Source: Yuukianura sp. NJ FZ-2021
Lineage: Eukaryota
Direction: 5' to 3'
Assembly (NCBI GenBank): GCA_046563655.1
Contig: CM102283.1
Coordinates: 8,494,001-8,558,000, forward strand
Length of the DNA: 64,000 nucleotides
Below, piece by piece: positions 584 through 61,683 of the stretch. Made by a program: the position numbers and the translations under genes. Within the stretch, counting starts at the first letter, position 1; the number at the start of each line of letters is the position of its first letter. Below the pieces are notes generated by a model. It was not told the DNA's origin, did no database searches, and saw only the letters and a program-made list of their open reading frames with translations.

Positions 584-2272
<1,689 letters not shown>

Positions 2273-5612: not shown

Positions 5613-7414
5613 ATGAAGTCTGTCATCGCCACCGTTGTCCTCGGCCTGGTTCTGGCCTCTGCCTTAGCCGAAATTCACTTTTCAGAGACATTCGATGATG
5701 GTAAGATTCCGAATCCAAAATCGCATGTTATTCAATTAAAAGTTAGTATACAATTAACAATATGGTCATAAAATGAGGCAACACGATAATGTCATCATGA
5801 CATAACGTTAGCCATACGTTTTTAGTATTGTGGCTAGCAATCGGTAACCAGTTTTATGCTTTAGGAGATGTTGGGTTCTAATTTTGGAGTTGCATTAATG
5901 AATTTGTTTTTGCAGATACATGGACAGAGAGATGGATCACATCAAAGCACGGAGACAAGACATTCGGAAAGTTTGAACTCACTCCTGGCAAATTCTACTC
6001 CGATGCCAAAAATAACGGTGAGTGAACTTCATATGTAGTACTCATAGTCATATGTTAGGGTGAAAGAACGCCATTTCTTACGGTGTGAATTTTGCTTTTT
6101 ATTAGCCATCAAGACCTCGCAAGACGCCCACTTCTACGCAGTCTCTACGAAGTTCCCAGAGTTTACCAACGAGAAGAAGACTTTGGTTCTTCAGTTTTCC
6201 GTAAAGCATGAACAAAATATTGACTGCGGCGGTGGGTACATCAAACTGTTCAACTGTGAATTCGACCCAGAAGATATGCATGGCGATACTCCATACCTCA
6301 TCATGTTCGGACCTGACATTTGCGGCCCAGGCACCAAGAAAGTTCATGTCATCTTCAACTACAAGGGAAAGAACCACCTCATCAACAAGTAATAAACTTC
6401 AGTCAGAAAATGATACTCATAATTAGTGGAATCTTAACTGATTTATCTTTTGCCATTATCAGAGATATCCGGTGCAAGGATGACGTTTACACTCACGTCT
6501 ACACTCTTATCGTCGAACCAGACCAGTCTTACGAAGTTCTTATTGATGGAGAGAAGGTACAAAGTGGCCAATTCGAGGATGATTGGAGCTTCTTGGAACC
6601 CAAGATGGTACGGTGTGACATTGACTTGGAAAATACTGGCAGTATGAGATTCGGTTTGTCAGTTCTGTCATAATTTCAGATCAAAGATCCCGCTGCCAGC
6701 AAACCAGAAGATTGGGATGACCGAGCAATGATCGATGATGAAAATGACACCAAGCCAGAAGACTGGGATCAGCCAGAACACATTCCTGACCCAGATGCCA
6801 CCAAGCCAGAGGATTGGGATGACGAGATGGGTAAGTTATTTAGTTAATTGCAGTTGAACAGTTGAAGTTAATACAGTTTTTTATTATTTCTTACATTCAT
6901 ATTATTAATTTTATAGATGGAGAATGGGAACCTGCTCAGATTGATAACCCAGCCTTCAAGGGAGAATGGAAACCAAAACAAATCGATAACCCGAACTACA
7001 AGGGCTCATGGGTTCACCCAGAGATTCCCAACCCAGATTATCAACCAGACTCTGAAATCTACAGATACCCGGCTATCTGCGGTGTCGGCCTTGACCTCTG
7101 GCAAGTCAAGTCTGGTACTCTCTTTGACAATATCCTCATTACAGACAGCCCAGATGAAGCCAAGACTGCCCGAGATGCTATTCTTGCCGGAGCCGTAAGT
7201 GCTGAAATCAGCTGAAATTCAATTAATGTTTAACAAGTTCAAAGTATTTAACTAATTGTTTACTTTTTAGGAGGAAGAGAAGAAGATGAAGGATGCTCAA
7301 GATGAAGAGGACAAGAAGAAGTCTGATGCCGAGAAAGGAGCTGATGATGAGAAAGATGATGATGAGGATGCTGATGACGATGAGGAGGAGAAGGAAGGTC
7401 ACGACGAGTTGTAA
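5613..7414 (+). CDS. CALR: Calreticulin, 7 exons
   Basis: Signal peptide [45 protein letters not shown]-domain KPEDWD repeats, acidic tail ending HDEL*. Confidence 0.98.
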
Positions 7415-19900: not shown

Positions 19901-22900
19901 ACAATCGTAAGTCACAATCAAACATTTAAAAAGTGAATTTTTATGATGGTCACTGCCTGTTTTGTGGGATTTCAAATTTTGCCGCCGCCACTGACGTCAG
20001 CAAAATTCGAAAATCCCCAAGAGCAAGACGGCGGCGATGTCACTTTGTGTGCCAAAATTCCCTAGAGTGGCGCTTTCACTTTTTTGCAAAAACCAAAACT
20101 GCCTCGGGCCAAAAATAATGAAATTATAAACTTATCACCAGTTTCTTTACTTTTACATGTTAGGTTAACATAACTTTTCAAAAAATTTCAAATTTTTGAA
20201 ATTTCGAGCCAAATTTTAAGACGAGGAGAGTTATAGTCTGATGGTTTCGAGTTACTTTAATTGGGCAAAACTCTAAAGATAGTTTAAATATAAAATTTCA
20301 ACTTCCGACTTTTGTCATGCAGTGCGACAAACCAAGAAATTTTAGAAGAGTTACGCCAATTTTCAAAGAAAAAAATTGTTACGCATGCGCCAACTCGTTT
20401 TTTTTTTGTGCTTTCAGCAACTACGCAGGTCCTCATACTTGTATCACCTACGACGCTGTTAACAACGCTTACATTCAAGCCCGGAAGTACATCCGTAAGT
20501 ATACACAACAACATTTTGTGTAACAATTACTATGTACACTAGTGTACAAAATGTACAAGATGAATCAAAACATGTAATTTGGCCCTACTTTATACCAATT
20601 TTGTGCAAATTTGTATTTTTGTAAGGTGTGGTGGAACGGAGAGAGCGTTATTCCCATGAAGAACTGGCTACAGTTGGAGAACTTGTGCTTGAAGTATCAA
20701 GAGTATTGGCAAGGACGTAAGCAAAACAACACACAAATTTCGAAAAGTTAAAATTTTGAAACATTTGAAATTTTCAAAATTTCAGGTACGGTTTGTCCGT
20801 TGATGAAATCGAACACGGATTGCCACTTATCGACACTTCTAAAACTCTCGTCCGTGAAATTTGTCCCGCCTTTTTGTCCAACGTGCACTGCCAACCCGGG
20901 AAATACCGTCGGTACGACGGTCTCTGTAACAATCTCAAGCATCCAACATGGGGCGCCGTCCAATCATCTTTCGCGCGTCTTTTGAAACCAGTTTATGCCG
21001 ATTCCATCTCCGATCCACGCGTGGGCCACTTAGGCTCAACCTTGCCACCGCCCCGAATTGTGTCCAGAACAATCCATCCAGACGAAGGTTACCACGACCA
21101 TGCTGCCACTATATTACTGATTTCTTGGGGTCAATTTATGGATCACGACTTGACCTTAACTGCAACTCCACTTGACCCTATCACTCGTAATGAAGTGGAA
21201 GAGTGTTGTCATAGGGCACCCAATGCCAAGAATCCATATTGCATGGAAATCTCCATTCCACATGACGATCCATTTTATGGAGTTTATGGCGTGAGATGTA
21301 TTGACTTTGTGAGGGGATTTCCGGGAACGAGAGCTGGATGTCGCCTGGGATCCAGAAATCAGTTTAACATTCTCACGGCCATTATAGATGGAAATACGGT
21401 GTACGGAGTAGAGGAAAACTTTGCACGGAGTCTGCGCTCTGGCTATGGAGGACTTCTGCGCATGAATCCAGTGTTTGCACAGTATGGATTGCATGACCTC
21501 CTGCCATTGAAACTGGACATTCCGGATGAAGGATGCTCAAGACCGAACAGAAGCATGTACTGCTTCGATGCTGGAGAAATTCGGGTCAATGAACAACTTG
21601 TTTTGACCTGCATGCATACCCTGATGGCTCGAGAACATAACAGAGTTGCACACAAATTGGGCGAAGTCAATCCACACTGGGATGACGAAACTACTTACCA
21701 GGTAATTACGAACTTACCATTACGAACTTACCGCTAATTACTCTAATTACTTTGGTTTTACATGAATTACCAAAAATGCTTGCGAAATTACGGCGAAGTA
21801 TGGGAATGCCAAAAACAAAATACAAAATCAGGAGAATTACTTTTAGGATTTGAAGGAATTAGCCAAATTGCCGAAGGTATTTCAAAAGTATTTCGTAATT
21901 ACTGTAATTACAGGAAGCTAGACGAGTAGTAATTGCTGAAATTCAGCACATTACTTACAATGAATTCCTGCCTCTGGTGCTTGGTAAAGAAGTGATGGCT
22001 AAATTCGGACTTTTGCTGCAAAAAGAAGGCTACTGGGATGGATACGATCCGAATGTCAATCCGGGCGTTTTGGCCTCATTCTCTGCAGCGGCTTTTAGAT
22101 TCGGACATTCCCTCCTTCCTACCAACGTTGAAAGATGGTCCAAAGCACATAAGTTCATCGGTAATTGAAATTTTTTGAAAATTTTTATTTCAAAACCACA
22201 ATTCTCTGGCAAAATTTTGATTTTTGAATCTGAATCTTTTGAAAACAGCCTCCAGAAGATTGCGTGACCTGATTCGACAACCGTTTGACCTGTACAGAGC
22301 TGGTGTAATTGACGAATACTTCATGGGCATGTCAAATCAAGTGGCACAAGCTATGGACGACTCTGTCACTCAAGAGGTACTTCACAGAGAAAAAACATTT
22401 TTTGTTTCGTAATTTCAAAATTTTGAAATTCAAAAACTGTGTTTTTGTAGGTAACGAATCACCTGTTTAGAAAACCTGGACAGCCATTTGGTGTAGATTT
22501 GGCGGCTTTTAACATGGCACGAGGACGTGAATTCGGACTTCCATCGTACATGGAGTACAGGTACTATAACCAGAACTTTTTAGTTGCACATTTTTAAATA
22601 ACATAATTCCAAATTTGAAAACGTTAAGAATTTAGTAGAAAAATCACTCTTTTTAAATAACATAATTCCAAATTCCAAAACGTTAAAAATTTAGGGAATA
22701 CAAACAAGAGCTATTGATAATTAGTATATTATAAAATAATAAATTATTAAATAATTTATTTTAATCAGGAAATACTGTGGTTTGCCCGGTGCTGAGGGAT
22801 GGGACGACCTGTTTGGCTCCATGAACAACATTACAGTGAAACGCTACTCCCAGATCTACGTCCATCCTCAGGACATTGACCTCTGGTCAGGCGGTGTCTC

Positions 22901-25900
22901 AGAACGCCCCCTACCGGGAGCCATGGTCGGACCAACATTTGCTTGTATCATTGCCACCCAATTTTCAAATGCCCGCCGCGGAGATCGATTCTGGTATGAA
23001 CTTGGAGGCCATCCACACTCATTCACACTGGAACAATTGGCAGAGTTGAGAAAAGCCCGCCTCGCCCGCATCGTCTGTGACAACACGGACATCATCGACA
23101 CTATTCAACTCTACCCGATGGTTCTACCTGACCATGAAATGTAAGAATTTTGATAATGGAGAGGTCAAAGGTCAAATATTTAAATTTTTAATTTTTAGCA
23201 ACCCGCGGGTACCCTGCCGATCCGGAGTTTTATTGAACATTGATTTTTCGAAATGGGCAGACTATGGTCACCACGGTCAGCAATCCGTGCCGGCTCCAGT
23301 GCATGTAAGCGTTTAAACAGTGAATTACTTTTGAGTAATTAGTTTAATTATAATATTATATATTTTGCAACTTTATCTTTAAAATATTTTTGTAAGTTTA
23401 TATTTTTTGGTACACCTTGTACATTTTTGTATTAAAATTTCTTCTTCTTCTTCTTCAGTGTCCTGTCTCTATTTTGTTTATAAATTGCTTCTGAAATTGA
23501 TTTTTTTAAATCTTTTTTGAACTAACTTTTTTCAAAATTCAAATTTTGGTTGGTGGATTTTTGGGTTTTATGGGGGGTGAAAAGTGTACAAAAAACGGAA
23601 ATTATAATAAATTACTAAAAATTCAGGTGGCTCCCCCTCTGGCGGGAATTCATCCTTCAGTAGTTCCAGAAACGCCGTTAGCCAGACTCTTACCACAACC
23701 GAGCCGTTTGCTATCGGCTGGATCGGCTCCAGCTCCAGCCGTTTTGGCTCCTCAGCGGCTAAGAACTTTCTATGGAAATCCAGCCATGGCACCACTTTTT
23801 GGAATTTCCCCCACCGGATCAACCCCAAACTCCTCCCCCAACATTCCCTTTGTCAAGTGACAAGTTAAGCCTTTCTTCGCTTCTCTGTCTCTAAATTAAC
23901 ACTTAAAAGTTATATTTCAAAATTTCAGATTAAGTTTTACCTAAGTTTTAAAGGTTTACAAAACTAAATTTTAAATTTTAGATTTTGAAAGGAACATTTT
24001 AGATTTTGTTTTAAATTGAGGAGGGTTAATTTTTCTTGGAACGGTTTTCCCCTCATACATAATTTATTCTGGCAGTAATTTTCGACAACTCAAAAAAAAA
24101 TCCAAAAAATTTTTTAACGCTTTTTCAAATTCAGCTCAACTCTACTTTGTTTACATTTTTGAATTTTTGTCAAATACGGTATTAGTTTAACTGCTAATAG
24201 GCTAACAGCTTTATTGCAAAATACATACTTTTATAGTACATCGAAGCTTTGTACATAAATGAACATTATGGTATCATGTAAAGTAAACTCTACGGTTTTT
24301 GGAGTTTTCAAACATACTTTTCGAAATTTCTCGGGATTTGGAAAAATTTTATTTTTGGGCAATTTTTGGTTCGGCTTTTCCGAAAAAGGTGAAATGGAGG
24401 TAAGAAAACCATTCTTTTGAGCCTCTTCGTGTGAATATTTGCTTTGACTGAAATTTCTTCTTTCTTCTGTCCATATTTTACATTTTTAATTTAGTTTGAA
24501 AAGTTTAGAGAGAATGCCTGTGAAATGCATTTGAAAATTAATTTTTGTGCTTAATTTTAAATTGTTTCGTTTTGCAGATTGATACTCCTAACTTGGGTGG
24601 CTATGAAAATGATCCGAGTGTTGGGAAGTACGTGAACCAAGATGGGTTGCAGCAACTGCGTCACTACTTGCGGGTGGGCCCTTACAGGGACTTCCTGAGC
24701 CACAAGAAAGGGTCCCACCACAACCCGTTCTTCGGATACCTCAGACAAGTAATACACCCATCTCCCATTGGACGCTAAACTTAAGGCCCTAACACACCTT
24801 TGCCTTCTCACACCGCTGGGCACTTGAGTAAAAAAACAGAGTTGGGAAGTGTGAATTTTTGTAATTTTTATTTCAATTTTATTATTATTTTTTTCAAAAA
24901 CAGAATTTGAAAACGGAAATGAGCTCAAACTAATATTTACCAATGCTCATTTAAAAAAAATAAACAATATCACATACGCAGCATGCCCAGATATGAACAG
25001 GGCGCTGGTTTCAGTTTTTCGATCGGTGTCTGTTTCACTTGTAATTTTTTGTCTAGTAAATTTTTTTCATAATTTTTTTTAACACTAACATTCAACATTT
25101 TTGGATTTTCGGAAAACCTTGTAACATTGGATTTTTAATTTTTGGTAAGTTTTTCTGTACATATTTTGCTTTGCTAACTCGAATTCTCGCTTTTCTCAAC
25201 TTGGCTTGGTATACAGCTTTTAGGCAAAAGAAAAATTTCTAAAATTTTGAATGATTCAAAATTTTGAAAAATTTTTGCAGGTCATTACTCGTAGGCCAGT
25301 ACTAGTGATTGATGGAGCTCAGGGTCAAGATGTATCGCAACTAGCCAGTGTGCACTACTCTCCTGGTCCAGTGCATGAACCCATGCCATATCCAGCAGGA
25401 ATTGACCTCAGTCCAAGAGGTCATCCAGTCCACCCGCCAGAGTTCAAAAAACCAGGTCGGAAAGTCAGAATTTAAAAAGTCCCGCACTCTTCGCCTTTCC
25501 TTTTCTTTTTAAATTCAAAATCAAAAGGTTCCCGCTGCTGTGAATTCTGTAAAGTCTGTCACTTTTTTGTAATTTCTGCACATAGATGGTCAAAAGGTCA
25601 ACTTTTTAAATTTAATCGTACAGTTTGTGTCAAATAGCGCTGTTTAGTATAGTAACTTACAAATCAATTTTGCTGTAGGCAAAATTTTTGCCTTAGTTTT
25701 TTGCCTTCGTGTCTGATTGTCTGTCTGAGCAGTGATGAGAGCATGTGCAGAGTGTGAATGACGCAAGTGGGCGGAGCTTAAATTCTGTTCTTCCTAGATC
25801 TGCACAATTACTTTTAATTAGTTGTAATTTATTTTTGTATGAAATTAAAAACTAATACAACTTCTACATCTTCACTGTCCATACTGTAGTTTTCTGTATA

Positions 25901-40426: not shown

Positions 40427-41932
40427 TCAGTTGACAGGAGCTTTAGACTTGGCGGGTTTCGGGTTGACAGGATCAAGCGGTTTTGTTACATCAAGTTGAC
40501 TTTGTTCCGGGATTGCCGGAGTCTCACCCTCTTCAGGTACTGTACTTTGCTGATGACGGTGACGATGACGATGCTCACCGTCTCCATGATGACGATGATG
40601 ATGATGACGATGCCCTTGGTCCGCCTCTTCTGCCGCAATGGCATTCTGCTTCCGTGCATTCCGAACGGCATAGAAGATGAAACATGCTGCTACGAGTGGA
40701 GCCGCGACGGTCGCCAGAGCAGCAAAGAACATAAAGCCAATTGCAGCTCTGTGCATGGCTCGAGCCTCAGCTGAGTTCTGGATCCGTTCGGGCGACATTT
40801 TGAAGAAGTCCTTGGCTCCGCCCTTCCAGCAAGCATAGAGCCCATGCTCAAAGTCAAAAGTTCTGTTGCCTATTTTGACGACATGGTTGGACTTTACATG
40901 GTTGACTGGCTCTTTAGGACGAACTGGTGGTGGTCCTTTTGTAGTAACGACTGGTTCTGGTGTAGTCATGTTGGGGTTGGATAATGTCCAATTGTTTGTG
41001 TTTGGGCTGTCTTTAGTATAATACTCGTTGGTTGCTGTAACGTAGGCTTTGTACTGAACGACGTAGCGACACAAGTCGTCGGGATCTTCTGCACTCGGAT
41101 CTGAGCGCATGAAGAACGGAAGAACGAAAGCGATAAAGGCAAAGATGAACGCCAGAATCAAAAAGGCGGCGGAAAACCGAGGATTCCTCAAGAAAATCTG
41201 AAAGAAAATATTCTTTGTTTCAAAATTTCTGTAAAGCGACTAATTTTCTAGTCTTTGATTATAATTTTCTAATTTGCGATTGGTTGTGATCTGCTAAGCT
41301 CTTGTGATTGGTTATATTTTGATTTGCTTTCATTTTGTGGTTTGTGATTGCATCATTGCATGTGCTTTGATTTTGTGTTTTGTGATTGGTTAGATTTTTA
41401 GTTTTGATTTCGTGGCTTGTGATTGGTTGTGCTTTGATTTTCTGATTTGTGATTGGTTGTACTCTGACTTTGTTGTTTGTGATTGGTTACTTTTTGAATC
41501 TCTGGCCTGTGATTGGTTAATTTTTTTGAACTTACGCTAGCAGCTCCTGCTACGAGGAAAAGTGCAGCAATGATTCCGCAGTCTCCGGCAGCTCTGAGCA
41601 AGTTGTTGTCCTGGCAGTACTTGGATTGCTCATACTTTTCTTTCTCGTTTGGCTTAAACTGGGACTCATGGGCAGTACTTTCAGTAGAACAAGTACCCTG
41701 GTCATCTGTGTAGTGAGCATAGGGTGGAGAGTACTTGACAAGCAGCCCAATTGAACCTCCTAGTAGCCCCAGGGCTAGGACCTGCAGCATTCAAGCCAAA
41801 AAAGTTAGGTCAAAGGTCAGCTAAAGGTCAAAGGTCATGACAGTTCTTTGGAATGCTTCGCTTTTTTTCTTGTTAGAGACTTACTATTAAGGAAACCATA
41901 AGAAAAATGGCAATGACTTTTACTAGCCCCAT
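40427..41932 (-). CDS. Four-TM membrane protein (claudin-like topology) with His-rich C-terminal tail, 3 exons
   Basis: MGLVKVIAIFLMVSLI|VLALGLLGG (TM1), Cys-containing loop, TM2 GIIAALFLVAGAAS|IFL, TM3 FSAAFLILAFIFAFIAFVLPFF, long loop, TM4 AAIGFMFFAALATVAAPLVAACFIF, tail HRHHHHRHH. Confidence 0.7.
41270..41522. repeat. Intronic degenerate minisatellite, about 30-bp unit
   Basis: Recurring ttgtgattggtt(g/a) core, about 8 copies. Confidence 0.8.
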
Positions 41933-42998: not shown

Positions 42999-43975
42999 AT
43001 GATTCTGGTTACGACAAAACGTTTGGTTACTATTAAAAAAGGAACCAACAAAAACACAGCCACGGCTGCAAAAATTGCTAAAATTGTCGTCCGAAAAGTT
43101 CCTAATCGGCAGGTAAGCGAGAAGTTGTCAATCATAATACTAAGATTTTTTTTTCAAAATTTGAAATTTGAAATTTTTGAAGTTTTTCAGAAAATTTAAA
43201 AATTTTCGTAATTTTACTTTTGTGTTAAATATTAGCCTGCAAAGATGGAGGAGTTTTGGACCCAAAAAACTGCCGTGATCATTTTCTTCCGACGCTTCGG
43301 ATGACTATTTTGTAAAACCGAACTTTTTCGCCTTTTTTTTTGCCTAGCATTTTGTAAATGTCTGACACTGACCCAAAGTAATCTGCTTAAAAATTTTAGA
43401 ATTTTCAAAAAAATTATATATTTTTTTTTCTGGCTTATAGGTAGGCAAGCGGCGATGGAGATCAGTCTTCTGCTGCCCTTGCTTGAAGCCAATGATATTC
43501 GACTGATCGGAATCGGATTGGAAGACATCGGGGTTGCTGATTTTTTGAAAGGAGAATTTTTTAGCGGTGAATTGTACGTAGATTCAAAAAAATCTTCCTA
43601 TGCTGCACTTGGATTCAGAAGATTCAACATTTGCACTCTCATCATGTCTATGTTTACAAGGTCAACTTGGACAGCCATAGCGAAGGTTAGTTTCTATCTA
43701 AAAACTCATGTCAAAGTTGAATTTGACCTTTGACCTCATGTGACCTTTGACCTTTGACCTTACAGGGAAGAGAACAGCATACACGTAGTGACGTCAGAGG
43801 AGACGCACTGCAAAATGGCGGGCTTTTGATAGTGAAAAAAGGAGGACAAGAAATTTTACTTTCGTACAGACAACAAAATCCTGCCGATCATGTTCCGAAT
43901 GAAGAAATTTTGAAAGCTCTTGGAATTAATACTCCGAATTCAGAAAATCCCGATTTTCAAAATCAAAAGTCATAA
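42999..43975 (+). CDS. PRXL2B: Selenocysteine-containing PRXL2B/FAM213B (SelenoU3; prostamide/prostaglandin F synthase family, thioredoxin-like fold); exons 42999-43112, 43236-43311, 43441-43685, about 43765-43975
   Basis: FWTQKTAVIIFFRRFG-TGA(43302-43304)-LF|CRQAA...IRLIGIGLEDIGVADFLKGEFFSGELYVD...GDALQNGGLLIVKKGG...QQNPADHV aligns with FAM213B RRFGCxxCR; SECIS downstream. Confidence 0.92.
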
Positions 43976-44029
43976 GTTCAAAATTTCAAAAAACAAAAAC
44001 ACTTTTCTTCTTTGTAAGGTTGTGTGACG

Positions 44030-44096
44030 TCATCCCATGATTTCACTTCTGAAAATTGTTTGGAATACAACCGGAAGTGAATGATTTCTTGGATGA
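44030..44096 (+). promoter_or_regulatory. Eukaryotic type II SECIS element
   Basis: Helix I TCATCC/GGATGA; core ATGA (44037)...TGAT (44082); helix II TTCACTTCTG/CGGAAGTGAA; unpaired AAA at 44052; apical mini-stem TTGT/ACAA. Confidence 0.92.
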
Positions 44097-44374
44097 TTTC
44101 AATCATTTTGTCGTCCATTGTTAAAGTTTGACCTTTGACCTGAACAGGTCAGTTTTTCTTAAACTTTTGATGTATGACTTTTAGAAAAAATTAAAAATGT
44201 GTAAAATATTTTTTATTGAAATTTGACTTAATAATTTCATTTTCATTCAAATTTGATGTCGTCTGTTGAACACTGTATTTAGTTTAGTTTGAGTTGCGTA
44301 AAATTGTAGTTGAGTTTTGTTTAGCTGAAAGTGCCATTGAGATGCTGTAGACTAGTTGCGTCGACGCAGTTGTG

Positions 44375-44909
44375 TTACTTCCGAAGTGCGTAGCCGTAAG
44401 ATGGAGCTGCGTAGTGGTGGGAGTAAGCTCCAGCAATATTATGGATTCCACCGTGGTTGAGGAATGGAACAGCGTTGGGCAGAATCGCTGCATGGCCAGT
44501 AGCTCCCAGTACTTCCGAAGCACTCAATCCAGAGCTGTAGATTGTGTTGAGCTACAAAAATATCAAAAATAATTTTTACAAAAAAAATCCTCCAAATTTT
44601 CAAAATTTTGGTTTTTGGATTTACTGGAGTAATGAATGGATCAGCGACGGCTACTGGAGCAGCTATTGGAGCAGCAGCATAAGCAAGTGGAGCTGCGTGA
44701 AGCAAATTTCCAGCTTGGGTTCCAGCGACCAACATAGCAAAAATGATGAGCTAAAAAGTCAAAACAAAAAATTATTAAATATTTTCAAAATTTTGATTCA
44801 AAACGGAAATTTCAGTTTTTTCCATAGTTCAGTGTTGCTGTCAGTTTCAGTTTTAAAAACTGAAATTTTTGATATTTTTGAAACTTTTTGTATGACTTAC
44901 GGTATTCAT
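44375..44909 (-). CDS. Small secreted Ala/Pro/His-rich cuticular-type protein, 3 exons
   Basis: MNT|LIIFAMLVAGTQAGNLLHAAPLAYAAAPIAAPVAVADPFITP|LNTIYSS...HYAAPSYGYALRK*; AAP motifs; TATAAATA at 44997-45004 on the minus strand. Confidence 0.8.
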
Positions 44910-46235: not shown

Positions 46236-48045
46236 AAAAACGGCGCCTTTTTCACAAGATTTCAAAACTTTGAAACTATTTTGACTAAATGAATAATTTA
46301 AAACATATTTAAAACAAAATGCTCAATTCAACAACAACAACAAAAAAACAGTCAAACACGGTAGTTCTACATTACAGTAGTAATTTTTATCAAAATTGCA
46401 AATTGAGATGAAACCAAAAATAAAAACATAATTTAATTTTTTTAAAATTTCGAAATTTTGGATCAGACTTGGCAACATTGCATAACTAAATTGCTCCTAT
46501 AGTTCACAACCGGCGCACACTGCTGTTGTTCAGCATGTGTTTCAAATTTAGTTAAAAAATTAAACCCTACCGCCAAATTGAGCAGTATTTGGCGAAGCGT
46601 AAAGTGTTGATTTCTGGTTTTAATTAGTTTTTGGTTCAAAATTGACCTTTTGACCTTCCGTGTGTGGTTGGGTTTTTGTTCATTTGATTTTGGTGTTTCA
46701 GTTGGTTGGTTCCTGTAAGCACTTCGCTCAGAAGTGGCGTCTCCCCTGGGACTTTCTCCGGAGAAAGTCCAATTCCGTTCTGCAGCCAACCAAAACGCAT
46801 AGCATTTTCCCTGTAGAGCTCCACATAACCCTTCACTCGGATCCGGAAAGGATTCACTCTTCAGTCCCCCCTCTTCCAACTGAATTTGGGCTCTGAAGGG
46901 CCCCCTCCCCTTAAATCATCCTTCTCTTCCATGCCGCTTCTCAATTAATCCCAGTTGACATTTTATGGACAGAACGAGGGTATGACATCCCACTCAACCT
47001 GTCATCGCTCCCAAACACGAACAGGAACAATTGGACAAGTATTTGTCTAAAAGCAGAAACTGCCAAGCACAATACTTGGCAAGTATTTGGGAAGTTGGGG
47101 AATTATTCAGTTAGCGGAAATTTGATTGGCCTGGAGATAAGCCTGTTCTGGAGAGACACGGAAAGCCCACCTGACGAAATGAGCCACTTCCGTCTACGTT
47201 CAAAAAAAAAGTTTCAAAAAACGAAAAAAAAAATTACCGACATAAATTTCCAACAAAAAAAACTAAATCCTGACATAAATTTTTCTGGAACTGCCTACAA
47301 AATAGAACGAAGCAAAAATTTTGGAAATGAAACTGAGCGTTTGAATTTTTCATCAAAACAGCATTTGCAAGCTGCCGAAACTCATGAAGAAATAGGAAAA
47401 TTCGAAATTTTGAGAAAGGAATTTTGAGAAACTTGAAATTTGGAAAATGGAAAATGAAATGTTGATTAATCAAAGTTTCCAGAAAGTTGAAATGCTGGTG
47501 GATTTGAGAGAGTGACTGGAATGAGATTTAATTGGAAGATAGTTTGGTGGAGCGTAGCTGAAAGTTGGAAATAAGTTTTGGTGGGGCGGTGGGTCCCTGG
47601 TGGGAGTCCCACCGTGGGTTCCTTTGTGCGGAATGATGATTTTGAATCCCTGTTTAATTGGTGGTGGGTCGTGGGAAGTGGATTGGGGCGGTGGCTTTTA
47701 TCAGTTGGTGGCAGCATAGTTTCGGCTGTCGCACTAATCCTCATGCTCCACTTCCATTGTCCGGAGTCAGCGGGTAAGGAACTGATACTCAAGTCCCCGG
47801 GGACTTTTCCCGCCACTTTCCAAGGCCCCCTCCCCTTCAACATGCTAACTCCACCCCCTGGACACGCCTCCGCCTTTCTCCCGTACACTTTCACCACCCC
47901 TACTCTCGTCCAACCACACTTTTCAATTAACACGGTCCATATAAATACTAAGACGGCAGGAAAAGTTATGTCACAAGCCAAAGTTGAATTTTGGACTTTC
48001 ACTTTTGGTTAAGTTAGGCTTTGTGGATCTCCCAGAAAGTGAAAA

Positions 48046-49331
48046 ATGCCACATACGGGTTAGAAATTTTTAAATTTTTTGGAATTTGTGTTTCAATAGA
48101 GTTGATTTTTAAAATTTTGGTTTTGGATTCAGGCCAAGCTGGTGTGAATCAATTAGGTGGCGTTTTTGTGAACGGACGTCCACTGCCGGATTTTGTGCGT
48201 CGCAGAATTGTTGAATTGGCGTTGATGGGCGTAAGGCCTTGCGACATTTCCCGCCAATTGTTGGTGTCACACGGTTGCGTTTCAAAAATTTTGACGAGAT
48301 TTTACGAAACGGGGTCAATCAAGCCTGGTTCCATTGGAGGAAGCAAAACAAAGGTAAAGCACAAAACTTTTTTCTTTTGAAATTTTATTTTCAAGTTTCC
48401 AGCATTTTCAAAAATTTTTAGCAAGTAGCAACTCCAGCCGTTGTAAAAAGAATTCTTAGACTGAAACAGGAAAATCGAAGTTTGTTTGCATGGGAAATCC
48501 GAGAACAGCTTCTGACCCAAAGGATTTGTGACATGCACAGGTAAACTTTTGAATTATGAAAATTCCAAAGTTTTCAAAATTTACAAAATTTTGACAAAAA
48601 TACTTTTTTTGTTTTAGTATTCCCAGTATTAGTTCGATTAACCGAATTTTAAGAAATTCTGGAATGCTGCACCCATCCGAAACTGAAGCGTCTTCAATTC
48701 AACAAAATTTCTCTACTTCCAGTCACCACACTCACAATCGAAAGTCAAATCAACCCGAATTCGGGCATTCCCAAACACTTCCGACAGATTCAAAATTTCG
48801 CTCTGGTAAATTACCGAAGCAGATTTTCAAAAAAAAATCAAAATTTCAAAATTTAACATTCTAAAGTATTCATCATTTACTATGAAGAACAACGCCTGAT
48901 TCGCCATTTTAACTTTTTCTTACTTTCGAACTTTTTTTACGTTAATTTTTTTTCTTGTGCGATTTTCAGAACTAGCAACCGCAACTCGAAGTAGTAACTC
49001 AACTTCCCTAAGACAGCTTCTCGTTCCAAAGCATTTTTCAAAACAAGGTGAGTGTTCAAACAAACTATTTCCAGCATTCCACAGTACTTCCTGTTCAGAA
49101 CAACTGAACTACTGCGCAGTTGCTCCTCAACCACTCTGGAATCCAACCAATCACAACAATCAATTAATCTCTTTCTACACACCACACCCTTATGATCTCT
49201 CAATCCATTCTAAATCAAATGATCAACACAATGTTAACTTTAGTCTAAGATTTTCAAAACCAACACGCAGACTTAAATCATTCACAATCGATGAAATTCT
49301 TAAAACTGACTCTAAACAACATTCTACCTAA
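48046..49331 (+). CDS. Poxn: Paired-box transcription factor Pox neuro
   Basis: [65 protein letters not shown]...SKTK|QVATP...FAWEIREQL...[12 protein letters not shown]; octapeptide-like SFTIDEIL; no homeodomain. Confidence 0.95.
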
Positions 49332-49842: not shown

Positions 49843-51438
49843 TTAAAGCTGGAATTGCTGTGACGGTGTAGCATATTCTGCTTTGTACAGCGACTGTTTT
49901 GACCTTGAAAAGTCCGAGTAGCCATCAATCTCCGGTGGAATGAGTAAGATTGGCTGGAGGTTCAACGGTCTCTTTTGGTGGATTTGGTCATGGTGGTGGC
50001 TCTTATGGTGGATCTGATCATGGTGGCTTATGGCAATAGAGGATGGTGGGGCTCCAGTAGTTTCCGTGGGATACAATCCACTTGGAAGGTATGATGAGGT
50101 CGTTCTGGCTTTGGATTTGGCTTTGCCTTCAGCAGGACTTAGTTTGACATGGTGGCTTCCAAGTACAAATCCCAGAATTGCCAGGACACAGCCATCTAAA
50201 ACGCCTAGAATTCCTAGGACGAAGCCCCACCGCATCCCACATGAGCCAAAAGAGTAGCGATCCGCCGTGGGTCCACATGTGAGACGCACTTGAGCAGAGT
50301 CCCACCCCAGCGGGAACACCAGTAGTCCAATACTGGCACAAAATGCTGAAAAACAAGTAGCAAAAAAATTGAATCACAAAATATTTAGGTCAATTATCCT
50401 GAAAATTGGAAATACGGGTCAATTATCCTGAAAATTCTAGGAAGGAAGTCGTAAAATTTGATTTGGAGATTCAAATTTTCAAAATTTTGAAACTTTTTAA
50501 CGATTTCTCAAATGCCAATCAACAAACCTTACAACTTTCGAGCATAACGTAAGAGATATTGCTGAATTTAAAAAAGTTTTGACGTAGTTCAAATTCGGCA
50601 ATTTCTTTCTTCTCTTTTTTTGACAACAATTTTTAGGCTTTCGTGCAGTTCTGCTCTGATTTTTTATTTTCTTTGCCATTTAAGGAAAAGAATGAAAAAA
50701 GCGCGGTAATTATGATTCGTGATTTTTTTTTTCAAATTTTTATGGCTCATAATCACAATAATAACAATGGAGGTAGGTGTCACTTTAGCATTTTTGAGCT
50801 TTTCGCTTCACAAGATTTGCAAAAGTGTGACCACTAAAAGACAAAAGCCCAAAATCAAAAAGCGAGAAAGCCAAGATTTCACCTTCGTTGAAAGTGGCGC
50901 CTGAGGCAGTCAGTTGACAATCAATTCTTAATTAACATAACAATTAAATTAATTTCTAAGATGTAAGATGTGAATTCGAAAAGTCTAAATTTTTCAAAAT
51001 TTTACCAGCAATAGTTTGCATCCAAGCGACAATATGATAAGCCAGAGCCGTCGGAGCACAAACGAACAAAATTAGAGCAAAAACCGAAAGACAAGCGACG
51101 AGCGACGACAGGCCGACCAAAACTGTTGCAATTTTGAGCGGTGAATTTGGAATTGTTGAAAAGTCGTCGAGTCGTCCACGACAATGTGGTTGGGACGTTG
51201 CAGTTGATTCTGTTGATGAAGATGAAATTGCACAGTGCTTCCAGGAGTTAAAGTATCCTGGTCCAGTAGTCGAAGTATTGCCAATCCATTGCGGTTGAAA
51301 AAACACAAGCAATGTAATAATTGCATAGCAAATACTAAAAACTCCCCACAGAAATCCAATTGCTTTGGTATTCTTAACGTAGTTGGCAACAATTAACTGA
51401 CCAGTTTGCACATACTCCACTTTACTTGAACTCACCAT
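49843..51438 (-). CDS. Tmhs: LHFPL tetraspan family protein (Tmhs/LHFPL3-5-like), 2 exons
   Basis: NYVKNTKAIGFLWGVFSICYAII...QPQWIG...GYF...CRGRLDDFSTIP...FPLGWDSAQVRLTCGPTADRYSFGSCGMRWGF. Confidence 0.92.
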
Positions 51439-52277
51439 CGTCCGACACTTAAAATTTCAAAATTTAAAAAAAATATCAAAATTTTACACTCTTTTGTCAA
51501 AATTTTACACTTTTTCTTTTGTCAAACTTTTCACTTTTCCTGTCAAAAGTCCTCCAAACAGTCTTTGCCTAAAAGTCGTTTTTGCCGAAAATGTAAAAAT
51601 CTGTTCGATTTGAGCAAAGTTTTAGCCGAAAAACTGCAATTGTTGTTAAATGCGGCCGAAAACTTTGTCGATCTTTGCCAATCTCATCAAAATTTGACAA
51701 AATTTTGACTTTCTTCAGTTTTTTTGTTGAAAACTGTCACGAAATGAGTAGGAAATAGAGAATTGGTAAAAGTGGATCCTCTCTTGTGCACATCCTAAAA
51801 CTTCAAAAGTTCAAAGTGTGTCAAAGAGGGTATGTAGCAGTACTAACTACACAAACTACACAGTACTGTCTAAACTTGTTCAAATTCCTTATGTGTATAG
51901 TGTATTGCTTAGGACTAAATGGCAATATTGCGAAAGATGCTGAGAAAGATTCTTGAGAGAGAGTTCAACCCTCTCCTGCTCCTCAGGGATGAACAACCCT
52001 GTTGAAAAAGCATTTCGCACAAGAGAATGCATGACATACAAAGGTAAGTGTTAATAAGAACTTCATTACACAATATACTAGTAACTTACCGTAAATTTTC
52101 ATATATAAGGTGCCAGAGCTCATTTTTCCCCTGTGCAATCATTGAATTGATTTTTGACTAGGTTGAAGCAAAGCACGCTTCGACTTAAAGTAACAAATAA
52201 CATAATACACAAAAACTTGAATTTTGGATTTTAATTTATTCAAGCATTTTTATTTCAAATGATTGAATTTTTGAGTT

Positions 52278-60561: not shown

Positions 60562-61683
60562 ATGATGGCGCATGCAACTCCAATGAGGAAAAAGAATTTT
60601 CACCAATTGCAGCACAGGATTGGCCTACCGTACCCGAATTATGGAATCGATATTGACGAGCTTCCGGTACTTTGTCGCTGCTACATTGATAATGGGAATT
60701 TCTATGTCACTCATCAACAAGACATTCCAACACTATATCGAAATGTAAACTGATCTAAACGTTTGATTAATCAAGTTGTAGAGTAATCGTCAGATTTATC
60801 CAAATGTTTTGTAATAGGGCGGCTTTGGACACAGCAGCATCACTAACCGAGGCCCAGTCTGTCTTATGGAAACGGCATACGAAAAGCAGTTTTACTACCA
60901 GAAACTTAAGGAGAGGAGGGAGAAGCGAAAACAGGCCTTAGAAGCTAAAAGCTCCGAGGTCAATGGAAGTCTTGGGAAACCAGAAACCAATTGTCCAAAT
61001 ACTTCAAATGGAAATGCGGCAGACGACAGTGACAAATTGGTTTTGTTACCAGAGGAGGCCATATTTCTTTCGTTTGGTGTTGGCTGCCTTTCCATGCACG
61101 ACGTTTCTACGTCAGAAAACGTCAGTCACAATGAAGTTTGGAAAACCCTGGTTCAAAGGAATCCAGAATTTCCGTACCTATATGCAGTCTACCACTACTT
61201 CCGTTCCAAAAATTGGGTACCTAAAGCTGGAGCGCAATTTGGAGGAGACTATAGTAAGAAATTGACAGTCTCCAGAAAATAACATTCAGGATTTTAACTG
61301 TCTTTTTATTTCAGTTTTATATCAGTTGGGTCCCGATTTTTACCACTCGACTTATGTCGTTTACATTGTGGGTCTTCCTTCTCGTCCAAAACTAAACTGG
61401 AGTCAACTCCACGCTCTCGAAAGAGTTGCCCTCACAGCTCACAAGGTAATTCATAATTCATTAATCATTAATCTCAGCTTTTTAGCTTTATCCTTAAAAA
61501 GTATTAGAGAAATTCTACTTTTTGACTTTTATACAGAACGTGCTGCTCTGTGAAGTGGAGATTCCTAAACTTTTTTCAGCCCCCGGTTCAACACCAAGAT
61601 CCATTTTTGATATCCGGATTCGAGAAACTGTGATAAGTCGCTGGACTCCATTTGGTCAACCCCATGCTGAGCAAGAAGACTGA
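60562..61683 (+). CDS. TSEN2: tRNA-splicing endonuclease subunit Sen2, 4 exons
   Basis: LYRN|GGFG, LVLLPEEAIFLSFGVGCL, YAVYHYFRSKNWVPKAGAQFGGDY|ILYQLGPDFYHSTY, TAHK|NVLLC, C-terminal SRWTP; catalytic Y/H/K present. Confidence 0.93.

What the first reader, a model, noticed from the sequence alone, without database searches (positions are those of the whole stretch)
42999..44096. Hidden selenoprotein: SelenoU3/PRXL2B with UxxC and a canonical type II SECIS
Seen: an in-frame TGA (43302-43304) sits exactly at the first Cys of the FAM213B RRFG-CxxC-R motif. The resolving Cys codon is split by an intron (t|gt), and the downstream exons are intact. About 60 nt past the TAA is a hairpin with every eukaryotic SECIS hallmark: AUGA/GA core, 10-bp helix II, unpaired AAA, mini-stem and helix I. 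Established: mammalian PRXL2B has Cys here, and Drosophila-type selenoproteomes are tiny (SPS2, SelenoH, SelenoK). Inference: this lineage keeps a Sec form of a prostaglandin F synthase-family oxidoreductase that standard annotation truncates; the ORF track starts at 43455, after the active site.
Basis: partly seen in the sequence, partly recalled or inferred. Interest (0 to 1): 0.93.

Follow-up and report, generated by a model that had tools for sequence, protein, structure and literature searches.

The report
Unannotated springtail selenoprotein gene (SelenoU3/PRXL2B)
A springtail gene for a thioredoxin-like reductase has a UGA "stop" where its relatives have the catalytic cysteine, plus a selenocysteine-insertion hairpin after the gene, so it most likely encodes a selenoprotein of an already known family.

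Summary
Four GT-AG exons (42999-43975, + strand) encode a 214-residue PRXL2B/SelenoU3-type protein that is homologous end to end to prostamide/prostaglandin F synthases. An in-frame TGA (43302-43304) lies at the first, catalytic Cys of RRFG-CxxC-R.

Starting 61 nt after the TAA is a hairpin with the full type II SECIS layout. A SECIS descriptor of my own hits only this site in the 64 kb; shuffles give 0.06 hits per window. No Rfam SECIS model matched it.

Relatives point to a conserved TGA. Of the 150 best family representatives, 75 have Cys at this site. Fourteen have Trp, which I read as TGA translated under another code. Eight begin 1-2 residues after it.

A neighbouring gene places the window in an Orchesella-like springtail, not an insect. 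The five named insect homologues I fetched all have Cys.

Sec-form SelU3 was already reported in invertebrates (PMC3473315), so this is a new member of a known kind. Its interest is modest. It shows that springtails keep a selenoprotein that the sampled insects have as Cys, and that annotation misses it. Sec machinery and RNA evidence could not be checked.

The parts
42999..43112 (+). Exon 1 (ATG to CAG|gtaagc), residues 1-38
   Evidence: One search gives the spliced frame. In one search the stretch IAKIVVRKVPNRQ aligns with IGRNVVRKVPSME of relatives.
43113..43235 (+). Intron 1, 123 nt, GT...AG, 20% G+C
43236..43311 (+). Exon 2, residues 39-63 plus the first base of Cys64. It holds the redox motif FFRRFG-U-LF-C.
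43302..43304 (+). In-frame TGA, the proposed Sec61 codon, at the site of the catalytic first Cys of CxxC
   Evidence: In one search it aligns on Cys44 of PDB 9us9. In one search, 75 of 150 relatives have Cys here, 14 have Trp, and 8 start 1-2 residues after it.
43312..43440 (+). Intron 2, 129 nt, GT...AG. It splits the Cys64 codon T|GT. It is open in frame, but that is not unusual.
   Evidence: In one search, relative P0004 has a gap of exactly these 43 codons. In one search, 1521 of 20000 shuffles were also open.
43441..43685 (+). Exon 3, residues 64-145. ATG 43455 (Met69) is the start a plain ORF finder would pick.
   Evidence: Pfam PF13911, 41.9 bits against a cut-off of 27..
43686..43765 (+). 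Intron 3, 80 nt, GT...AG. It holds three overlapping TGACCTTTGACCT repeats.
   Evidence: In some searches, P0004 reads through a GT at the same place, after ...ALAK.
43766..43975 (+). Exon 4, residues 146-214 plus TAA (43973-43975). It holds the conserved GD.LQNGG...GG..LL.YRQ..PADH stretch.
44029..44097 (+). SECIS-form hairpin, type II. Helix I is 44029-35/44091-97. AUGA is 44037-40 and GA is 44083-84. Helix II is 44042-51/44072-81. AAAA is 44052-55. The mini-stem is 44056-59/44067-70.
   Evidence: One search lists the pairs; the SECIS form scores -20.1 kcal/mol. In one search the unconstrained fold has the same layout. In one search it is the only descriptor hit in the window. No Rfam match.
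44190..44195 (+). ATTAAA, a possible polyadenylation signal downstream of the hairpin (inferred)
   Evidence: pattern only, no RNA data

Best explanation
This is a functional four-exon gene of a springtail. It encodes a thioredoxin-fold oxidoreductase of the PRXL2B/SelenoU3 family (prostamide/prostaglandin F synthase type).

The UGA at 43302-43304 is read as selenocysteine. The 3'-UTR hairpin at 44029-44097 acts as the SECIS element. It would recruit SBP2, eEFSec and Sec-tRNA to the ribosome, and it lies 523 nt downstream of the UGA in the mRNA.

Sec61 replaces the nucleophilic first Cys of the CxxC motif. It would attack a peroxide or endoperoxide substrate and then form a selenenylsulfide with Cys64, which a thiol reductant then reduces.

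Shown here: the gene structure, the homology, the position of the TGA, the hairpin anatomy and its uniqueness in the window, and the signs of TGA in relatives.

Inferred: that the hairpin lies in the mRNA, that Sec is inserted, and what the substrate is.
For: - Gene: the spliced frame is open except for one TGA. Pfam AhpC-TSA_2 scores above its cut-off (40.4 and 41.9 bits against 27). The best solved relative is human prostamide/PGF synthase, 9us9, at E 2.2e-16, and the TGA lies on its RRFG-C-VVC-R. Homology runs from exon 1 to exon 4.
- Catalytic site: Cys44 of the human enzyme faces the PGH2 peroxide, and Arg40 and Arg41 are conserved (PMC12938796 passages). The window protein keeps RR-FG-U.
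- SECIS: all pairs were verified. The unconstrained MFE fold gives the same architecture, with z = -2.05, and 6 of 200 shuffles fold as well. It is the single descriptor hit in 128 kb of sequence searched, against 0.06 expected.
- Conserved TGA in relatives: of the 150 best representatives, 14 have Trp at the site and 8 start 1-2 residues after it. The closest full-length relative, P0285 (54% identity over 172 columns), has RRFG-W-LFCRQ. I read Trp as TGA translated under another genetic code; that is an inference.
- TGA is not a general sense codon here: neighbouring exons of 322-368 codons are open under the standard code, and one is 90-97% identical to relatives.
- Sec use in springtails: the Holacanthella genome paper lists 6 tRNA-SeC and 4 SECIS hits (PMC5644144 passages).
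Against: - No Rfam SECIS covariance model matched the hairpin at E<=10 in three nested scans, nor at gathering score. That Rfam 15 holds SECIS families is my recollection, and I had no positive control.
- My SECIS descriptor was written after I had seen the candidate.
- The closest relative by identity, P0004 (74 of 104 aligned residues), has Cys, so TGA is one base away from the state in a near relative.
- There is no RNA evidence for the junctions or for the 3' end.
- No tRNA-Sec or Sec-machinery gene lies in the window, and the rest of the genome could not be searched.
- The DNA of relatives could not be fetched, so neither TGA at the Trp sites nor SECIS conservation is shown directly.
Confidence: 0.85

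Rival explanations
1. The TGA is a nonsense mutation, a null allele or a sequencing error in a Cys-form PRXL2B gene (TGT/TGC to TGA). On this reading the locus is a young pseudogene or a mis-called base.
For: TGA is one base from either Cys codon. The nearest relative by identity, P0004, has Cys at this site, as do Folsomia candida and the 5 of 5 named insect homologues fetched. Rfam found no SECIS.
Against: All splice sites and the rest of the frame are intact. A hairpin with the complete SECIS layout lies 61 nt after the stop and is the only such site in the window, against 0.06 expected per window. Other relatives, including the closest full-length one, show Trp or an ORF start at exactly this codon.
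Confidence: 0.06
2. The UGA is passed by ordinary stop-codon readthrough, with a near-cognate tRNA inserting Trp, Cys or Arg, rather than by Sec insertion.
For: The codon is followed by CTA. I recall UGA-CUA as a leaky context from work on mammalian readthrough; this was not checked in any call.
Against: The SECIS-form hairpin is present. The family is already known to have Sec members at this residue (PMC3473315). Trp or Arg at the catalytic nucleophile would inactivate the enzyme (PMC12938796).
Confidence: 0.04
3. The real product starts at ATG 43455 (Met69) and lacks the redox motif. Exons 1-2 would then be untranslated leader.
For: This is what an ORF finder returns. In one search, 38 of the 150 best representatives start more than 4 residues after the site.
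Against: Exons 1 and 2 are conserved at the protein level with full-length relatives (VVRKVP, FW..K.AVIIFFRRFG). A protein without the CxxC region would lack the catalytic residues. Truncated database entries are the usual fate of selenoprotein genes (PMC13134290 abstract).
Confidence: 0.03

Closest known systems
Sec-containing SelU3 (SelenoU3/PRXL2B orthologues) of invertebrates, described by Jiang et al. 2012 (PMC3473315)
   Same: Same family: a Prx-like2 / AhpC-TSA_2 fold and a prostamide/PGF synthase type protein. As I recall, Sec sits at the redox-motif Cys, though the passages read did not state the position. A SECIS follows the gene. In that paper SelU3 was the most abundant invertebrate SelU group, with Cys forms only in deuterostomes (section 8 read in full).
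   Different: That study covered six marine or basal invertebrates and no arthropod. This gene is from a terrestrial hexapod (a springtail). Its additional files, which hold the sequences and SECIS drawings, could not be opened.
Human PRXL2B, prostamide/prostaglandin F synthase (PDB 9us9 and 9usa)
   Same: It is the best solved relative (E 2.2e-16). It shares the RRFG-CxxC-R active site with two conserved Arg and the downstream GELY, LGF+R and GG..V motifs. The first Cys is the catalytic nucleophile (PMC12938796).
   Different: The human enzyme has Cys44 where this gene has TGA. Identity is low: a vertebrate-like representative, P0168, is 26% identical over 182 columns. Whether springtails make prostaglandin F at all is unknown.
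SELENOU1 (PRXL2A) selenoproteins of fish and birds
   Same: Same superfamily, and as I recall the same UxxC arrangement, with a SECIS in the 3' UTR. Repeated Sec-to-Cys conversions are described for it (PMC13134290 passages).
   Different: It is a different subfamily. All named near relatives of the window gene are called prostamide/PGF synthase, PRXL2B or FAM213B. PMC13134290 found Sec only in the SELENOU1 branch of its data set, so Sec-form U3 genes are less widely recognised.
Cys-form prostamide/PGF synthases of insects and of Folsomia candida
   Same: They are orthologous or paralogous full-length proteins, 38-44% identical, with the same motif order.
   Different: They carry Cys (RRWGC or RRFGC) at the site. 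The RRWGC insects form their own clade (95/92) away from the window gene.

Membership tests
PRXL2 / SelenoU family (Pfam AhpC-TSA_2, PF13911) | Match to the family profile above the curated cut-off | tested here: met
   40.4 bits (exons 2-3 read through) and 41.9 bits (exon 3) against a cut-off of 27. Exon 4 alone scores 18.7 bits, below the cut-off.
PRXL2 / SelenoU family (Pfam AhpC-TSA_2, PF13911) | Redox motif C/U-x-x-C after a beta strand, preceded by RR-x-G | tested here: met
   FFRRFG-U-LFC-R. It aligns column for column with RRFGCxxCR of 75 of 150 representatives.
SelenoU3 / PRXL2B subfamily | Closer to PRXL2B than to PRXL2A or PRXL2C | tested here: inconclusive
   The best PDB match is prostamide/PGF synthase. 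Apart from entries labelled only unnamed or hypothetical protein, every named hit is called prostamide/PGF synthase, PRXL2B or FAM213B. No tree with identified PRXL2A and PRXL2C sequences was made, because none could be named (listing of cluster members was off).
Eukaryotic selenoprotein gene | In-frame UGA aligned with Cys (or Sec) in homologues, with coding conservation on both sides | tested here: met
Eukaryotic selenoprotein gene | SECIS element in the 3' UTR | tested here: inconclusive
   The structural criteria are met, and the site is unique in the window. No Rfam SECIS model matched. The extent of the 3' UTR is only inferred from ATTAAA at 44190.
Eukaryotic selenoprotein gene | Genome encodes tRNA-Sec, SBP2, eEFSec, PSTK, SecS and SPS2 | not testable with these tools
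   There is no tRNA in the window and the rest of the genome is not available. Another springtail genome paper lists 6 tRNA-SeC and 4 SECIS hits (PMC5644144).
Eukaryotic selenoprotein gene | Selenium found in the protein (75Se labelling or mass spectrometry) | not testable with these tools
   Needs an experiment.
Eukaryotic SECIS, type II | AUGA on the 5' side and GA on the 3' side, forming the non-Watson-Crick quartet | tested here: met
   U38.U85, G39.A84, A40.G83 and U41.U82 (positions 440xx).
Eukaryotic SECIS, type II | Helix II of about 9-12 bp leading to unpaired AA (spacing rule recalled from the SECISearch papers) | tested here: met
   10 bp (one G-U), then AAAA at 44052-44055.
Eukaryotic SECIS, type II | Extra mini-stem above the AA, and helix I below an internal loop | tested here: met
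   a 4-bp mini-stem with a 7-nt loop, a 7-bp helix I, and an internal loop of CA (plus the A of AUGA) against UUCUU.
Eukaryotic SECIS, type II | Match to a curated covariance model (Rfam SECIS families) | tested here: not met
   Searches (E<=10; gathering score): no SECIS family listed. No positive control was available.
Prostaglandin F synthase (enzyme activity) | Reduces PGH2 or prostamide H2 to the F2alpha form | not testable with these tools
   Only the active-site residues are shared.

The most novel reading that the evidence does not exclude
Springtails keep a larger selenoproteome than insects. It would include at least two Sec-form SelenoU3 paralogues, both missed or garbled by standard annotation. 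One is this gene's clade (with P0285 and P0287). The other is a second clade represented by the mis-spliced Orchesella cincta model P0291 and by the Trp-bearing P0276, P0277 and P0146.

Sec would have been replaced by Cys several times within Collembola (P0004, Folsomia candida) and in insects. If so, the collapse of the selenoproteome assigned to 'the base of Insecta' (PMC4244043) happened after springtails branched off. Springtails would then be a terrestrial hexapod model for why Sec is kept or lost.
Probability: 0.5. Interest if true: 0.4.

Novelty: new member of a known kind. Interest (0 to 1): 0.3.

Why it matters
This is a real gene that ordinary gene callers would truncate at Met69 or drop. 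It should be annotated with Sec at residue 61.

Springtails branch off near the base of the hexapods. [quoted passage not shown] A Sec-form SelenoU3 in a springtail, with Cys in all five named insect homologues fetched, helps to date that loss. It also adds a land-living case to the idea that large selenoproteomes go with aquatic life.

Many public invertebrate PRXL2B models skip or start after this codon: oyster, periwinkle, mussel, coral, krill and Orchesella cincta. That is a practical warning for databases.

It opens no new mechanism.

Tried and rejected
- Rfam scans for a SECIS family: 3001 nt, 185 nt and 79 nt at E<=10, and the whole window at gathering score. Nothing relevant was found, only weak chance matches such as Ysr209 and snoTBR5.
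- ARAGORN on the window: no tRNA, so no tRNA-Sec here.
- First word-indexed protein search with exons 2-3: 1 hit among 18 candidates. This was too insensitive, so I followed it with the exhaustive representative search and a profile search.
- I considered whether the in-frame, stop-free intron 2 means something, such as a retained-intron isoform. In shuffles, 1521 of 20000 are equally open, and relative P0004 lacks exactly these 43 codons. It is an ordinary intron.
- I considered a genome-wide reassignment of TGA and rejected it. Long neighbouring exons are open under the standard code and align at 90-97% identity to relatives.
- The bacterial promoter/terminator scan is not meaningful for a eukaryote. 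It only pointed out a 5-bp hairpin just before the TGA.
- Literature searches for springtail selenoproteins found no paper that analyses them. The only relevant item was the Holacanthella RNA-gene table.
- One literature query was rejected for a slash in a term and was re-sent without it.

Not checked:
- Supplementary tables of PMC4244043 (Table S26) and PMC3473315 (Additional file 1), which may list arthropod SelU genes.

Full report
**What is in the sequence**

Between 42999 and 43975 on the + strand lie four exons: 42999-43112, 43236-43311, 43441-43685 and 43766-43975. The three introns, of 123, 129 and 80 nt, all have GT...AG borders. Spliced, the exons give 645 nt, which is 214 codons plus TAA.

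The ATG at 43455 is Met69, where an ORF finder would start.

**What the protein is**

- Exon 3, and exons 2-3 read through, match Pfam AhpC-TSA_2 (PF13911) at 41.9 and 40.4 bits. The cut-off is 27.
- The best solved relative is human prostamide/prostaglandin F synthase (PRXL2B; 9us9, E 2.2e-16). The TGA lies on the first Cys of its RRFG-C-VVC-R.
- In that enzyme Cys44 is the residue that faces the peroxide of PGH2. Arg40 and Arg41 are conserved beside it (PMC12938796, passages). The window protein keeps both Arg.
- A 30-row alignment shows homology from exon 1 to exon 4. In exon 1, IAKIVVRKVPNRQ aligns with IGRNVVRKVPSME. In exon 4 the conserved stretch is GDALQNGGLLIVKKGG..LLSYRQQNPADH. The four-exon model is therefore supported by homology. 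There is no RNA evidence.
- Intron 2 is confirmed by relative P0004, whose alignment has a gap of exactly its 43 codons (74 of 147 identities with the gap, 74 of 104 without).
- Intron 2 is open in frame, but this is not remarkable: 1521 of 20000 shuffles are open too.

**The hairpin**

The pairs were checked base by base:
- Helix I: 44029-35 with 44091-97, 7 bp.
- Internal loop.
- AUGA 44037-40 opposite UGAU 44082-85, giving U.U, G.A, A.G, U.U.
- Helix II: 44042-51 with 44072-81, 10 bp including one G-U.
- Unpaired AAAA: 44052-55.
- A 4-bp mini-stem with a 7-nt loop.

This is the type II SECIS layout as I recall it from the SECISearch papers. The AUGA starts 61 nt after the TAA and lies 523 nt after the UGA in the mRNA.

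An unconstrained fold of 101 nt gives the same architecture: -25.6 kcal/mol, z = -2.05, and 6 of 200 shuffles fold as well. The SECIS-form structure alone scores -20.1 kcal/mol.

I wrote a descriptor with these terms: ATGA, GA, a helix II of 9-12 bp with at most one mismatch, AA, an apical part of 10-30 nt, and a 6-bp helix I. It finds one site in both strands of the window, and it is this one. In 100 dinucleotide shuffles the mean was 0.06 hits, and 6 of 100 shuffles had any hit. I wrote the descriptor after seeing the candidate, so it leans towards it.

Against the SECIS reading, Rfam gave no SECIS match. I scanned at E<=10 on 3001, 185 and 79 nt, and at gathering score on the whole window. 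That Rfam holds SECIS families is my recollection, and I had no positive control. An ATTAAA at 44190 could serve as the poly(A) signal (inferred).

**Relatives**

The exhaustive search of 1.84 billion representatives gave 278 hits at E<=0.001. I aligned the best 150 to the spliced protein and read off the residue at the TGA site:

| State at the site | Number of 150 |
|---|---|
| Cys | 75 |
| Trp | 14 |
| Protein starts 1-2 residues after the site | 8 |
| Protein starts more than 4 residues after the site | 38 |
| Upstream residues present but not aligning | 11 |
| Ser | 2 |
| Lys | 1 |
| Gap | 1 |

Trp exactly at the catalytic nucleophile, inside an otherwise intact RRFG-W-xxC-R, is best explained as TGA translated under another code by a metagenome gene caller. 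Proteins that begin right after the site are ORFs opened by that stop.

A profile search returned named proteins:
- Folsomia candida has Cys.
- All five named insect homologues fetched have Cys: Pseudolycoriella, Bacillus rossius, Battus, Carabus and Timema.
- The tick Rhipicephalus and the rotifer Rotaria have Cys.
- The krill model starts right after the site.
- The oyster, periwinkle, mussel and coral models skip it.
- The Orchesella cincta model P0291 has an unrelated stretch exactly where RRFG-U-xxC should be. The nearly identical unnamed P0277 has RRFG-W-LFCRQ there.

The closest full-length relative of the window gene, P0285 (54% identity over 172 columns), also has Trp at the site.

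In a tree of 28 rows, the window gene groups with P0285 (support 88/55) and P0287 (80/92). P0004 and P0135 were dropped from the tree because they are shorter than 140 aa. A second clade (99/96) holds Folsomia, O. cincta, P0276, P0277 and P0146. The RRWGC insects form a third clade (95/92). Springtails therefore seem to have two lineages of this gene, though support for the first is moderate.

**Organism**

A neighbouring animal-haem-peroxidase exon is 90% identical to Orchesella dallaii and 97% identical to an unnamed protein. It is at most 74% identical to any insect. The window therefore comes from an Orchesella-like springtail, not an insect.

TGA is not a general sense codon in this genome. 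Exons of 322-368 codons are open under the standard code.

**Comparison with what is known**

- Jiang et al. 2012 (PMC3473315; passages, and section 8 in full) reported Sec-form SelU3 genes in several invertebrates and placed the Cys forms in deuterostomes.
- A 2026 vertebrate-centred study found Sec only in the SELENOU1 branch of its own data (PMC13134290, passages).
- The centipede genome paper states that non-insect arthropods are rich in selenoproteins and puts the loss at the base of Insecta (PMC4244043, passages). Chapple and Guigo 2008 is in line with this (PMC2500217, passages).
- Three searches for springtail selenoproteins found no analysis of them. One springtail genome paper lists 6 tRNA-SeC and 4 SECIS hits (PMC5644144, passages).
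- The supplements of these papers could not be opened. They may already list arthropod SelU genes.

**Verdict**

This is a selenoprotein gene of the SelenoU3/PRXL2B family with UxxC and a SECIS-form hairpin (confidence 0.85).

It is a new member of a known kind, not a new kind. The main rivals are a nonsense allele or base-call error (0.06), plain readthrough (0.04), and a truncated product from Met69 (0.03).

What remains open: RNA evidence, the Sec machinery of the genome, conservation of the hairpin in orthologues, and the substrate.

Noticed in passing
window 43724-43760 (intron 3), 44129-44141 (3' flank), 41807-41837 (- strand), 23162-23174 (- strand): TGACCTTTGACCT occurs 7 times in the window against 0.01 expected. 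Four copies lie in or just after this gene. Two lie 17-47 nt upstream of the ATG of the minus-strand ORF that starts at 41790. The unit can be read as a 7-nt tandem repeat, or as a direct repeat of the complement of the AGGTCA nuclear-receptor half-site spaced by one base (the second reading is recalled, not tested).
   Followed up: partly
related protein P0291 (Orchesella cincta public model; not in the window): The annotated 253-aa prostamide/PGF synthase of O. cincta has an unrelated stretch exactly where relatives have ...LRRFG-x-LFCRQ. The near-identical unnamed P0277 has Trp there. It is probably a second, mis-spliced selenoprotein gene of springtails.
   Followed up: partly
related proteins P0295, P0296, P0302, P0312, P0313: Public PRXL2B models of oyster, periwinkle, mussel, krill and a coral skip the redox-motif codon or start just after it. 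This suggests widespread mis-annotation of Sec-form SelenoU3 in invertebrates.
   Followed up: partly
window 43288-43307: A 5-bp hairpin (TCCGA CGCT TCGGA) ends on the base before the TGA. The TGA is followed by CTA, a context I recall as leaky for readthrough. The meaning of either is unknown.
   Followed up: no
related protein P0278 (Pseudolycoriella hygida): This fly protein groups with the springtail clade (99/96) rather than with the other insects. It could be an old paralogue kept in some Diptera, or contamination of that assembly.
   Followed up: no
window 651-1986 (-), 6048-7215 (+), 20769-23144 (+), 48018-48380 (+), 49843-51456 (-), 60818-61282 (+): Neighbouring genes by Pfam: RBBP4/Caf1-type WD40 histone-binding protein, calreticulin, animal haem peroxidase, a paired-box (PAX) gene, an LHFPL-type tetraspan protein, and a tRNA-intron endonuclease fragment (26.6 bits, just under its cut-off of 27). 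An Ala/Pro-rich ORF at 44439-44750 (-), convergent with the selenoprotein gene, has no Pfam match.
   Followed up: partly
window 1-64000: No tRNA gene and no Rfam family at gathering score in the whole 64 kb.
   Followed up: yes
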